Shown here piece after piece: positions 40,302 through 64,000 of a stretch of DNA of 64,000 nt; position 1 is the first letter of the stretch, and each line of letters opens with the position of its first letter. Location: NCBI RefSeq assembly GCF_039634785.1, contig NZ_JBBIAB010000003.1:13724-77723 (forward strand), given 5' to 3'. The notes under the pieces are model-generated. The model made no database searches, was not told where the DNA came from, and saw only the letters and a list, made by a program, of their open reading frames with translations. The position numbers were made by a program, and so were the translations under genes. The stretch is from Tistrella mobilis (GTDB taxonomy: Bacteria > Pseudomonadota > Alphaproteobacteria > Tistrellales > Tistrellaceae).

Positions 40302-43300
40302 ATGACCGCGCCACATTTCATCGCACATCAAAACATCTGGCTGGATGAACGGCTGAATACCGGACCGGGCTCATATCACATCGGTGGATATGTTGAACTC
40401 CGTGGTCCTCTGGATATCGATATCTTCGGCGCGGCACTGAAGGCGGTGGCGGTTGCACATGCCGGCCTGCATATGCAACCGGTGCCCGAAGGAGACGGTT
40501 TTCGTCTTCTCACATACCAAGACACCTTCTCGTCACCTGTCAGCGTCGATCTGTCGCAGGAGGAAAATCCTGTGGCAGCTGCGAACGCATGGATGGCGGC
40601 GGATTTCCGCCGGATATTTCCGGCCGGCGCCCCCCTGTTCAGGTGGGGGTTGATACGCCTCGCAGCCGACCGCCATTTCTGGACCAAGACCTATCATCAT
40701 CTGATCGTCGACGGCCACGCGATCTCCCGGATCGTGCAGGATGCCGCACATGCATACACCTCGCTGCTCGCCGGCCGCGACCCGGGCCTCGCCGGCAGCG
40801 ATCCGCTGGCGATCGGGGATCCGCTTGCAGGCGACGGCGTGTCGGCGCGCCGCCACTGGTCGACGGTTCTGGCAGCGGCCCCGCCGGTGCTCAACCCGGT
40901 ACCGCCCCTGCCGCCCCCGCATTTCGGCCCACCGGATTTCGGCCCACCGGATCTCGCCCCGCCCGAGCCCGACGTGCCGGGCCGGCGAACCCGGATCGGG
41001 CTGGAGCGCCGGGTCTATGACGGCCTCGCCCGGCTTGCCGCAGAGGCCGGCGCCGGCCTGCCGCAGCTGCTTCTGGTGCTGGCCTCCGCCGCCCTGCTCC
41101 GCCGGGCGGGGCGGGATGCCCTGGTCGCCGGCCTGCCGGTCGCCAACCGGCCGACCGCCGCTCACAAGGCTGCCGTCGGCCTGTTCGCCACCATGCAGCC
41201 GGCCATCGTTGCGATCGATGCGACCGACCGCCCGCTCGATGTCGCGGCCGCTCTGGCCCGCAGGATGCGCAGCGCCTATCGCCATCGCAGCATCGCCTTT
41301 GCCGAACAGGCGGCGATGCTGGCGGCGGTGCGTGGCCGGGGCACGCCCGCTTTCGATCTCACCCTGTCTTTCGAGCCGCACGACTACGATGCCCGCTTCG
41401 GCCCGGCGACGGCGACCGCCCATACCCTCTCCACCGGACGAGAGCCGCATCCGCTCTCGATCTTCGTGCGCGACTATCACGACGGCGCCGCCGTCACCGT
41501 CGATCTGGACTGGCGCAGCGACGTTTTCGCCGCCGACGACATCCCGGCCCTGATCGCCCGTTTCGACCGACTCTGCCATCGGCTCCTCGACCAGCCTGAA
41601 GCCAGCCTCGGCCGGCTCGACCGGCCGGACGCCGAAACCCTCGCCCGGCTCGGCCGGCTGGGCCGCGGCCGGCCGCCACGACCGGGCGATCTCGCACCGC
41701 TCGCCGATGCGATCGCGGCCCAGGCCGCCGCCACGCCCGCGGCCCTTGCGGTGGTCGATGCCGCGACCGGGGATCGGGTGGACTATCAGGGCCTCGTCGC
41801 CCGCGCCGGCCGCCGCGCGGCCGCCCTTCAGCGCGCCGGTGCCGGCCCCGAAAGCGTGATCGGCCTTGCCCATCCTTCGGGAATCGAGACCGTGGTCTCG
41901 CGGCTCGCGGTCTCGATGGCAGGCGCCGCCTGGCTGCCGCTCGATCCCGAGGATCCCCCTGCCCGCCAGGCGGCGATGCGCGATCAGGCCCGCCCCCTGC
42001 TGGTGCTGGACGACCAGTCGGCCCGCGCCCTCGACCTGACCGTTGCCGCCGATGCCCGGCCGGCAGCACGGCCGGTTGATCCCGAACAGCTCGCCTATCT
42101 GCTGTTCACCTCGGGCTCGACCGGCACGCCCAAGCCGGTCGCCGTGCCGCACCGGGCCCTGGCCATGCACATGGCCTGGATGGGCCGGCGCTATCCGCTC
42201 GGCCCCGACGACGTCGTCCTGCAGAAGACCCCGGCCGGTTTCGACGCCTCGATCTGGGAGTTTCTGGCGCCGCTGATGGCCGGCGCGCGGCTGGTGCTGG
42301 CGCCGGCCGGCAGCCATCGCGACCCTGAGATGATCGGGCGCCTTTGCGCAGATTACGGTGCCACCATCCTGCAGGCCACGCCGACCCTGATCGACGCGCT
42401 GGCCGCGAGCGGGGCGCTCGCCCGTGCCAGCCGGCTGCGCCGCCTGTTCGCGGGCGGCGAGATCCTGGGCCCCGCGACCATCGCCGCCGCCCGGGCGGCC
42501 CTGCCCGCCGATGCCGCCCTGATCAATCTCTACGGCCCCACGGAATGCTGTATCGACGCCTCGGCCGCCGACATCCCGGCGGATCTGCAGGGGGCGGCGC
42601 CGCTGGGTGATCCGGTCGACGGCGCCAGCCTGCAGGTGATCGATGCCGCGGGCGACCCGGTCGGCCCGGGGGTCGCCGGTGAACTCGCCATCGGCGGCCT
42701 CGCCGTCGGCCGTGGCTATCACGGCGATCCGGTGCGCACCGCGCTCGCCTTCCGCCCCGACCCCGAGGCGGAGATGCCGGGCGCCCGCCGCTATCTGACC
42801 GGCGATCGCGTCCGCCGCACGGAACGGGATGCCCTGCTGGCGCTGGGCCGGATCGACGGCCAGATCAAACTGGGCGGCCGGCGGATCGAGCCGGGCGAGA
42901 TCGAAGCCGCGCTGATGGCCCATCCCGCCATCGCCCAGGCGGGCGCAGCCCTGCTGCCGGCGACCGACGGCGCCGCTCCCCGGCTGGGCGCCTGCATCGT
43001 GCTCCGCCCCGGCCATCCTGCCCCGGCCCCCGACGAGTTGCGCCGCCATCTGGCGGCCCGCCTGCCCGCCGTGCTCCACCCCGCGGTCGTCACCACCGCC
43101 GATCGCCTGCCGCTGTCGCGTTCCGGCAAGCTCGACCGCCGGGCCCTTGGCCAGGCGATGGCCGGAGAGGCACCGGCCACCGCCGCCCGCGCCCGCCTCG
43201 ACGGCCCGCTTCAGGCCGAAATCGCCGCGATCTGGGCAGAAGTGCTCGACCTGCCGATGCCCGGATCCGGCGCGGATTTCTTCGCCCTCGGCGGCCATTC

Positions 43301-64000: not shown

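What the first reader, a model, noticed from the sequence alone, without database searches (positions are those of the whole stretch)
40302..64000. Collinear prediction acyl-Gln-Gln-O-(hydroxy acid)-Pro-NMe-D-Leu-Thr-... resembles the start of didemnin-type lipoglutaminyl depsipeptides
Reading the three genes in order gives the chain below.
- A starter C domain (fatty acylation).
- Gln, Gln.
- A KR-reduced hydroxy acid (lactate-like if the substrate is pyruvate) joined by an ester.
- Pro, then N-methyl-D-Leu, then Thr, then more.

A lipidated oligo-Gln leader ester-linked to Lac-Pro-(NMe-D-Leu)-Thr is exactly the N-terminal logic of the didemnin precursor family. Those compounds are made by a high-GC alphaproteobacterium.

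If this is not that already-characterised locus, it is a close-logic but distinct lipodepsipeptide pathway and would be new. The window stops before the downstream modules, so the macrocycle-forming part is unseen.
Basis: inference. Interest (0 to 1): 0.8.

Follow-up and report, generated by a model that had tools for sequence, protein, structure and literature searches.

The report
Start of the known didemnin cluster

Summary
Window 40302-64000 carries three co-directional, overlapping NRPS genes:
- Gene 1 (40302-46700): Cs-A-T-C-A-T.
- Gene 2 (46697-52105): C-A-KR-T.
- Gene 3 (52102 to the window end, still open): dock-C-A-T-C-A(MT)-T-E-C-A.

The A-domain codes read Gln, Gln, alpha-keto acid, Pro-like, Leu-like and Thr.

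It is not a new pathway. Window 30302-56700 is base-for-base identical to Tistrella mobilis assembly GCA_042685245.1, contig JBHUNG010000010.1. The window is collinear at about 95% nucleotide identity with megaplasmid pTM3 of T. mobilis KA081020-065, apart from about 2.2 kb (25001-27231) that I did not search. KA081020-065 is the strain in which the did (didemnin) cluster was defined.

The proteins are 94.5-96.5% identical to DidA, DidB, DidC and DidD. Gene 1 sits in the same 90% cluster as UniProt I3TWS4, named "DidA".

The published DidA biochemistry (acyl-polyGln by iteration) and the ester-linked prodrug logic (didemnins X/Y, cleaved by DidK) therefore apply.

The one difference worth noting is that didC and didD form a single gene here. 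The published split comes from a one-base-shorter C run inside a condensation domain.

The parts
40302..46700 (+). didA orthologue (2132 aa): starter C - A(Gln) - T - C - A(Gln) - T. It makes the N-acyl-polyglutamine leader.
   Evidence: Pfam C/A/T twice. His motifs at aa 132 and 1194, and carrier-domain GGHS motifs starting at aa 997 and 2042. Both A codes are DAWQFGLIDK. 94.5% aa identity to DidA of pTM3. The exact sequence is WP_345957691.1, in the same 90% cluster as AFK57212.1/I3TWS4 'DidA'.
40302..41681 (+). Starter (lipoinitiation) condensation domain of DidA; coordinates approximate.
   Evidence: N-terminal position. The best solved relatives are RzmA lipoinitiation C domains 7C1K/7C1H/7C1P (E 1e-26 to 2.5e-25). 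The CDA starter C domain 4JN3 also hits. The 7C1H/K/P names are from PMC10510592; that 4JN3 is a starter C domain rests on my own knowledge.
46697..52105 (+). didB orthologue (1802 aa): C - A(alpha-keto acid) - KR - T. This is the lactate module; its C domain makes the Gln-O-Lac ester.
   Evidence: Pfam C 58-492, AMP-binding 716-1103, KR 1427-1585, PP-binding 1719-1782. 95.2% identity to the pTM3 DidB ORF. Best solved relative is StsA 6ULW, E 2e-120.
48680..50578 (+). Keto-acid-selecting adenylation domain of DidB (aa 662-1294).
   Evidence: In the alignment to StsA 6ULW, V909 aligns with StsA Ile306, the hydrophobic residue that replaces Asp235. G1017-M1018 aligns with StsA Gly414-Met415. These features are as defined in PMC7923214.
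50975..51451 (+). Ketoreductase domain of DidB (aa 1427-1585), with the NAD(P)H motif TGGHGGLG at aa 1430.
   Evidence: Pfam KR, E 1.2e-19; motif.
52102..64000 (+). Fused didC-didD orthologue. It is open to the window end, with 3966 of 5185 aa visible: dock - C-A(Pro)-T - C-A(Leu)[MT]-T-E - C(DCL)-A(Thr)...
   Evidence: No stop codon from 52102 to 64000. Pfam. aa 1-1314 are 96.5% identical to pTM3 DidC, and aa 1324-3966 are 95.7% identical to the pTM3 DidD ORF. The gene is called as a 5185-aa product in GCA_042685245.1.
52114..52263 (+). TubC_N-type N-terminal docking domain (aa 5-54).
   Evidence: Pfam PF18563, E 2e-17.
52279..55371 (+). Module 4: C-A-T, Pro-like code DVQFAAQVVK; boundaries approximate.
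   Evidence: Motifs; code; the same code string in pTM3.
55426..61191 (+). Module 5: C - A(Leu-like, DAWFLGHVVK) with an N-methyltransferase inserted (aa 2085-2208) - T (GGDSI type) - E. It gives N-Me-D-Leu.
   Evidence: Pfam Methyltransf_12/25/23 at aa 2085-2208. Motifs. Code. The E domain (window 59800-61200) best matches E domains of PvdL, TycB, bacitracin synthase 3, TycA and GrsA at E 6e-65 to 7e-39, against 2e-9 at best for the other condensation-type chains listed. That the matched segments are E domains rests on my own knowledge of these entries.
56036..56040 (+). C5 homopolymer run inside the module-5 condensation domain. pTM3 has C4 here, and that creates the published didC/didD boundary.
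   Evidence: Alignment A1. The pTM3 DidC tail is out of frame after ...GFTAP, and the DidD ORF resumes at VQSYQGAL in mid-domain. Sequence read.
61219..64000 (+). Start of module 6: DCL-type C domain and A domain with the Thr code DFWNIGMVH. The A domain is cut by the window end.
   Evidence: The C domain best matches C domains that I know to follow an E domain or accept a D-residue (PvdL 548-986, bacitracin synthase 3 474-880, SrfA-C, TycB1) and, top of the list, a McyB fragment whose donor chirality I did not establish, at E 2e-56 to 6e-42. The best clearly LCL-type chain, TycC 2JGP, scores 9e-15. Code.

Best explanation
Window 40302-64000 is the 5' portion of the didemnin (did) hybrid NRPS-PKS gene cluster of Tistrella mobilis, in the strain sequenced as GCA_042685245.1.

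Proposed mechanism, module by module:
1. DidA's starter C domain acylates Gln with a 3-hydroxy fatty acyl thioester. Its two Gln modules are used iteratively to build acyl-(Gln)3-4.
2. DidB adenylates an alpha-keto acid (pyruvate). Its KR reduces the keto acid on the carrier to lactyl-S-T. Its C domain joins the Gln carboxyl to the lactate hydroxyl as an ester.
3. The fused DidC-D protein adds Pro.
4. It then adds Leu, which is N-methylated by the embedded MT and epimerised by the E domain.
5. It then adds Thr through a D-donor-specific C domain.
6. It continues outside the window with Ile and the PKS/NRPS modules that complete didemnins X/Y.
7. These are prodrugs. The CAAX-type esterase DidK later removes the acyl-polyGln leader to give didemnin B.

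What is shown here: gene and domain order, specificity signatures, and orthology and synteny with the reference cluster.

What is taken from the literature:
- iteration by DidA;
- the ester prodrug, the product structures and DidK.

What is inferred:
- pyruvate as the DidB substrate (inferred from the lactate residue in didemnin B);
- that this strain's cluster is complete and active.
For: - Nucleotide identity is 95.5% over 100% of 40302-64000 to pTM3 NC_017958.1 674941-698547, in one piece.
- Window 27232-63999 and 3-25000 are collinear with pTM3; 25001-27231 was not searched.
- L082, from JBHUNG010000010.1, is identical to window 30302-56700.
- Gene 1 is in the 90% cluster of UniProt I3TWS4 'DidA'. 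Amino-acid identities to DidA/B/C/D are 94.5-96.5%.
- Domain architecture matches.
- The A-domain code strings extracted by one method are the same in the window and in pTM3; the readings used here are.
- The keto-acid signature is present.
- Starter C, E and DCL assignments follow the closest solved structures.
- In pTM3 the region continues with KS-KR-T-C, A-KR-T, KS-MT-T, C-A-T, (C)-A-T and C-A-MT-T-TE, then an Rce1-like CAAX protein. This matches the published 11 NRPS + 2 PKS modules and DidK (PMC10811503).
- DidA biochemistry and the didA knockout are in PMC10811503.
Against: - No evidence found here contradicts the assignment.
- The downstream two-thirds of the cluster in this strain lies outside the window and was not read.
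- T. bauzanensis shows that truncated did loci exist (PMC9964501). That truncation removes didC-didH, whereas didC and didD are present and intact here.
- The original cluster paper (Xu et al. 2012) is not held in the library. Gene names therefore rest on UniProt naming and later papers.
Confidence: 0.96

Rival explanations
1. A distinct, uncharacterised lipodepsipeptide pathway that merely shares the first-modules logic with didemnin.
For: None beyond the architecture itself.
Against: Nucleotide identity is 95% and the order is collinear with the reference did region and its flanks wherever compared. Protein identity to DidA-D is 94.5-96.5%. The A-domain code strings are the same in both. The source is the same species.
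Confidence: 0.01
2. A decayed or truncated did remnant that no longer makes didemnins, as in T. bauzanensis DSM22817.
For: Truncated did loci are reported (PMC9964501). The window ends inside didCD, so the downstream genes of this strain were not seen.
Against: All three genes are uninterrupted. Every length difference from the reference is in-frame. The catalytic motifs are intact. The third gene is annotated at its full 5185 aa in the source assembly. The bauzanensis-type deletion removes didC-didH, but didC/D are present here.
Confidence: 0.03

Closest known systems
did (didemnin) biosynthetic gene cluster of Tistrella mobilis KA081020-065, megaplasmid pTM3 (Xu et al. 2012; DidA = UniProt I3TWS4)
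   Same: Same genes in the same order with the same flanking genes. Nucleotide identity is about 95% and amino-acid identity 94.5-96.5%. Domain architecture matches, and the A-domain code strings are the same for all six A domains visible in the window.
   Different: - didC and didD are one reading frame here: a C5 run instead of C4 at 56036-56040.
- Eight in-frame insertions or deletions of 1-8 residues separate the two strains. Five of the six that are 5 residues or longer coincide with short tandem repeats; the DLPQ insertion in DidA, a single Gly and a PAG do not.
- The replicon of the source contig is unknown. The cluster is reported on a megaplasmid in KA081020-065 and on the chromosome in strain L17 (PMC10811503).
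did cluster of T. mobilis JCM21370 (Stankey et al. 2023, PMC9964501)
   Same: Reported to have didC-didD fused into a single gene, as seen here. That strain produces didemnin B.
   Different: I could not compare sequences because that assembly was not retrievable with these tools. Whether the window is from that very strain is unknown.
StsA / CesA-type keto-acid-selecting depsipeptide synthetase modules (PDB 6ULW)
   Same: The DidB A domain shares the hydrophobic residue in place of Asp235, the Gly-Met motif, and a KR between A and T.
   Different: StsA uses alpha-ketoisocaproate (PMC7923214). DidB is taken to use pyruvate, because the product residue is lactate. This assignment is not experimentally tested here.
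N-acyl-D-Asn prodrug systems (xenocoumacin XcnG, colibactin ClbP)
   Same: An NRPS-made N-acyl-aminoacyl leader is removed at or after export (PMC10811503).
   Different: In didemnin the leader is acyl-(Gln)3-4 and is linked by an ester. It is cleaved by a CAAX/Rce1-like esterase (DidK), not an S12 peptidase.

Membership tests
did (didemnin) gene cluster of Tistrella mobilis | Orthology and synteny with didA-didD of the reference strain | tested here: met
   95.5% nt identity over 100% of 40302-64000. Collinear with pTM3 over 3-25000 and 27232-63999. 94.5-96.5% aa identity. Same 90% cluster as I3TWS4 'DidA'.
did (didemnin) gene cluster of Tistrella mobilis | DidA is a bimodular NRPS with a starter C domain and two Gln-specific A domains | tested here: met
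   Both codes are DAWQFGLIDK, which I recall as the canonical Gln code.
did (didemnin) gene cluster of Tistrella mobilis | C-A-KR-T module for lactate, followed by Pro, N-Me-D-Leu (MT + E) and Thr modules | tested here: met
did (didemnin) gene cluster of Tistrella mobilis | Downstream Ile, PKS (isostatine), Hiv A-KR-T, PKS-cMT (Hip), Leu, Pro and N-Me-Tyr-TE modules | not testable with these tools
   These lie outside the window. They are present in pTM3 downstream of the matching region, apart from the Ile module inside DidD, whose domains were not scanned. For this strain, only the 5185-aa length of the third gene is known.
did (didemnin) gene cluster of Tistrella mobilis | DidK CAAX/Rce1-like esterase near the cluster | not testable with these tools
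   None was found among the window ORFs scanned upstream of didA. In pTM3 an Rce1-like 345-aa ORF lies downstream of the last NRPS gene (L083 37244-38281, minus strand). That position is beyond the window end.
did (didemnin) gene cluster of Tistrella mobilis | Production of didemnins X/Y/B | not testable with these tools
   Needs LC-MS of the strain.
Keto-acid-selecting depsipeptide synthetase module (StsA type) | Hydrophobic residue in place of the amino-binding Asp235 | tested here: met
   V909 aligns with StsA Ile306. Feature as described in PMC7923214.
Keto-acid-selecting depsipeptide synthetase module (StsA type) | Gly-Met motif (StsA Gly414-Met415) in place of the Gly-Pro of core A5 | tested here: met
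   NEFGMAE, with G1017-M1018.
Keto-acid-selecting depsipeptide synthetase module (StsA type) | KR domain between A and T, with a split pseudo-Asub domain | tested here: inconclusive
   The KR at aa 1427-1585 between A and T is shown. The pseudo-Asub halves were not modelled. The only hints are an unassigned ~220-aa stretch between the C and A domains and the fact that the 6ULW alignment starts at aa 662, before the A core.
NRPS epimerisation domain | HHxxxDxxS-type His motif, a preceding GGDSI-type carrier, and E domains as the closest relatives | tested here: met
   HHLVIDAVS at aa 2703 and FFEAGGDSI around aa 2521. E-domain structures score E 6e-65 to 7e-39, against 2e-9 at best for the other condensation-type chains listed.

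The most novel reading that the evidence does not exclude
The single-gene didC-D arrangement seen here is the true, functional organisation of the assembly line. The same may hold for the single-gene didH-I found in other T. mobilis genomes.

On this reading, the didC|didD and didH|didI boundaries in the published KA081020-065 cluster are one-base homopolymer frameshifts inside condensation domains. They would be either sequencing errors or strain-specific lesions that the producer tolerates. The textbook ten-gene didA-J map would then need correcting to eight synthetase genes.
Probability: 0.6. Interest if true: 0.15.

Novelty: already known. Interest (0 to 1): 0.08.

Why it matters
The didemnin pathway matters for medicine: didemnin B and plitidepsin are clinical compounds. 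But this window adds only another strain-level copy of a cluster that has already been sequenced, knocked out and partly reconstituted in vitro.

Its practical value is small, and has two parts:
- It confirms that a reader working from raw sequence can recover the collinear logic correctly.
- It gives an independent sequence showing that didC-didD is one continuous gene. That is relevant to anyone cloning or refactoring the cluster from the published annotation.

Tried and rejected
- **Genome-contig scan with DidB.** It returned only generic NRPS relatives at 26-37% identity.
- **Xu et al. 2012 (PMC3401512).** The paper is not held. Cluster naming was taken from UniProt names and from later papers.
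- **The search for homologous proteins with the DidC region plus the junction C domain.** I wanted to survey fused versus split didC-D across Tistrella genomes. No protein longer than about 2.73 kaa was listed, and only a 1211-aa fragment matched at 96%, so this failed for didC-D. It did, incidentally, recover single 2151-2155-aa DidH-I proteins.
- **MAFFT placement of Stachelhaus position 278 in the Leu domain.** It gave 'P'. It is internally validated only in that it reproduces the known PheA code DAWTIAAIC.
- **Long antisense ORFs** (for example 40533-46697, minus strand, 2054 aa). Rejected as high-GC artefacts: GC3 is 0.85-0.88 on the + frames, and all homology lies on the + strand.
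Full report
**1. What is in the sequence**

The + strand of 40302-64000 holds three tightly packed genes.
- Gene 1 runs 40302-46700 (2132 aa, ATG start).
- Gene 2 runs 46697-52105 (1802 aa); its start overlaps the gene 1 stop.
- Gene 3 starts with GTG at 52102, overlapping the gene 2 stop. It stays open for 3966 codons to the window end.

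Third-position GC is 0.85-0.88 in these frames. The equally long antisense ORFs listed are the usual by-product of 74% GC.

**2. Domain anatomy**

Pfam and core motifs give the following architecture.
- Gene 1: C-A-T-C-A-T.
- Gene 2: C-A-KR-T.
- Gene 3: TubC_N docking domain, C-A-T, then C-A with a methyltransferase inserted before core A10, a carrier domain of the GGDSI type, an epimerisation domain (HHLVIDAVS), another C domain, and the start of a further A domain.

The closest solved structures refine these assignments.
- The first C domain of gene 1 is closest to the RzmA lipoinitiation (starter) C domain 7C1K/7C1H/7C1P. It also hits the CDA starter C domain. The RzmA names were checked in PMC10510592.
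- The putative E domain matches chains that I know to carry E domains (PvdL, TycB, bacitracin synthase 3, TycA and GrsA) at E 6e-65 to 7e-39. The next chains on the list, of other condensation types, reach only 2e-9 or weaker.
- The C domain after the E domain matches a McyB fragment and C domains that I know to sit behind E domains or accept D-residues (PvdL 548-986, bacitracin synthase 3 474-880, SrfA-C, TycB1) at E 2e-56 to 6e-42. It matches the LCL-type TycC domain only at 9e-15.

**3. Substrate signatures**

I aligned each A domain to a GrsA-PheA fragment. That fragment was recalled from memory, and it reproduces the known PheA code. The ten-residue codes, and the substrates I recall for them, are listed below.

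| A domain | Code | Reading |
|---|---|---|
| Gene 1, A1 and A2 | DAWQFGLIDK | canonical Gln code |
| Gene 3, A1 | DVQFAAQVVK | close to the Pro code DVQFIAHVVK |
| Gene 3, A2 | DAWFLGHVVK (position 278 fixed by hand) | one residue from the Leu code DAWFLGNVVK |
| Gene 3, A3 | DFWNIGMVH | canonical Thr code |

The gene 2 A domain is of a different kind.
- Its best solved relative is StsA (6ULW, E 2e-120), the keto-acid-activating A-KR module (PMC10510592).
- In the alignment, V909 occupies the position of StsA Ile306. That is the hydrophobic residue which replaces the amino-binding Asp.
- G1017-M1018 matches StsA Gly414-Met415.
- These are the features reported to discriminate keto acids from amino acids (PMC7923214).

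**4. Identity of the locus**

- Megablast of 40302-64000 against the plasmid collection gave one full-length, single-piece match. It is 95.5% identical, to megaplasmid pTM3 (NC_017958.1, 674941-698547) of Tistrella mobilis KA081020-065.
- Window 27232-63999 and 3-25000 are collinear with pTM3, in total from about 635547 to 698547, at about 95%. The 2.2 kb in between (25001-27231) was not searched.
- The exact gene 1 protein is NCBI WP_345957691.1 (T. mobilis). It belongs to the same 90% cluster as AFK57212.1 / UniProt I3TWS4, which UniProt names DidA.
- Looking up that protein returned contig JBHUNG010000010.1 of assembly GCA_042685245.1. The fetched stretch is base-for-base identical to window 30302-56700.
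- Protein identities to the pTM3 ORFs are 94.5% (DidA), 95.2% (DidB), 96.5% (DidC) and 95.7% (DidD).
- A-domain codes extracted by one and the same method give the same strings in both strains.
- Downstream of the matching region, pTM3 encodes KS-KR-T-C, A-KR-T, KS-MT-T, C-A-T, (C)-A-T and C-A-MT-T-TE. Further on it encodes an Rce1-like CAAX protein.
- That is the published 11 NRPS + 2 PKS didemnin line plus DidK (PMC10811503; PMC5577590; PMC9964501).

**5. Mechanism**

The parts demonstrated in the literature for this cluster are these.
- Deleting didA abolishes all didemnins.
- Purified DidA, given 3-hydroxydecanoyl-CoA and Gln, makes N-acyl-tri- and tetra-glutamine. So its two Gln modules act iteratively.
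- The assembly-line products are the N-acyl-polyGln ester prodrugs, didemnins X/Y.
- The membrane CAAX-type esterase DidK removes the leader to release didemnin B (PMC10811503).

The parts inferred here from the sequence are these.
- DidB loads a keto acid, and its KR reduces it.
- The DidB C domain forms the Gln-O-Lac ester.
- Pro, N-Me-D-Leu and Thr follow.

Pyruvate as the DidB substrate is inferred from the lactate residue in the product.

**6. Differences from the reference**

The only frame-changing difference is a C5 run at 56036-56040, where pTM3 has C4. In pTM3, 'DidC' therefore ends in about 16 out-of-frame residues after ...GFTAP. The 'DidD' ORF resumes at VQSYQGAL. That point is in the middle of the module-5 condensation domain (Pfam 1109-1552 of the fused protein).

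Here the gene is continuous, and the source assembly annotates it as 5185 aa. This agrees with the report that T. mobilis JCM21370 has didC-didD and didH-didI fused (PMC9964501).

Outside the window, the pTM3 didH/didI boundary is likewise two overlapping frames inside a C domain. Other T. mobilis genomes carry a single 2151-2155-aa DidH-I protein.

All other length differences in didA-D are in-frame: PPHFG, DLPQ, QDAELV, DPAGL, VPAPSV and ATAPVTAP inserted in the window, and a Gly and a PAG absent from it. Five of the six insertions (all but DLPQ) coincide with short tandem repeats detected.

**7. Surroundings**

ORFs with Pfam matches upstream of didA:

| Window coordinates | Strand | Product |
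|---|---|---|
| 38828-40030 | - | MFP adaptor |
| 35736-38828 | - | RND pump |
| 34874-35464 | - | DUF697 protein |
| 32723-34411 | - | ABC ATPase/permease |
| 31275-32741 | - | SPFH protein |
| 30486-31271 | + | type II thioesterase |
| 28067-30403 | + | SecDF |
| 25518-27332 | - | Kef-type antiporter |
| 24689-25600 | + | Sfp-type phosphopantetheinyl transferase |
| 20326-24735 | + | second MFP/RND pair |

Further upstream are housekeeping and transport genes. This matches the published description of transporters and a type II TE flanking the core genes (PMC10811503). I did not verify one-to-one gene names.

**8. Verdict**

The second branch, a new but similar pathway, is excluded. The feature is already known.

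Interest is low (0.08). The only mildly useful point is independent evidence that didC-didD is one gene. It suggests the published split is a homopolymer frameshift.

Noticed in passing
window 56036-56040 (and L081 around 28690): A one-base difference in a C homopolymer (C5 here, C4 in pTM3) lies inside the module-5 condensation domain. It accounts for the published didC/didD gene boundary. In this strain the gene is continuous (5185 aa).
   Followed up: yes
L083 18460-24913 (pTM3, outside the window): The published didH/didI boundary is also two overlapping reading frames inside a C domain. Other T. mobilis genomes encode one 2151-2155-aa DidH-I protein (P0017, P0018). This suggests a second frameshift in the reference sequence.
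   Followed up: partly
window 40913-40960, 50681-50715, 57199-57231, 60294-60329, 60605-60658: Short in-frame tandem repeats (12-24 nt) inside the NRPS genes coincide with five of the amino-acid insertions relative to pTM3: PPHFG, QDAELV, DPAGL, VPAPSV and ATAPVTAP. Repeat copy number varies between strains. I did not map the repeats to domain boundaries.
   Followed up: partly
window 30486-31271 (+): A stand-alone type II thioesterase (Pfam Thioesterase, E 9e-40) lies 9 kb upstream of didA. It is probably the external TE mentioned as 'Orf4' (PMC9964501), or the type II TE knocked out in PMC10811503. I did not verify the name mapping.
   Followed up: partly
window 24689-25600 (+): An Sfp-type 4'-phosphopantetheinyl transferase (ACPS + AASDHPPT_N) lies 15 kb upstream of didA. 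It is a plausible activator of the did carrier domains.
   Followed up: no
window 20326-24735 (+) and 35736-40030 (-): Two RND efflux pump / membrane-fusion protein pairs, plus SecDF (28067-30403), an ABC transporter (32723-34411, -), an SPFH protein (31275-32741, -) and a DUF697 protein (34874-35464, -), flank the cluster. They are candidate export functions for the lipopeptide prodrug.
   Followed up: no
window 17153-18304 (-): An MnmA-type tRNA 2-thiouridine methyltransferase, normally a core housekeeping gene, lies in the region collinear with the 'megaplasmid' pTM3. This hints that the replicon behaves as a chromid.
   Followed up: no
L083 31825-32964 (+) and 34762-35895 (-) (pTM3, outside the window): A TIR-domain protein and a MazG_C-domain protein sit between the last did NRPS gene and the DidK-like CAAX gene in the reference. 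These are defence-like genes embedded in the cluster flank.
   Followed up: no
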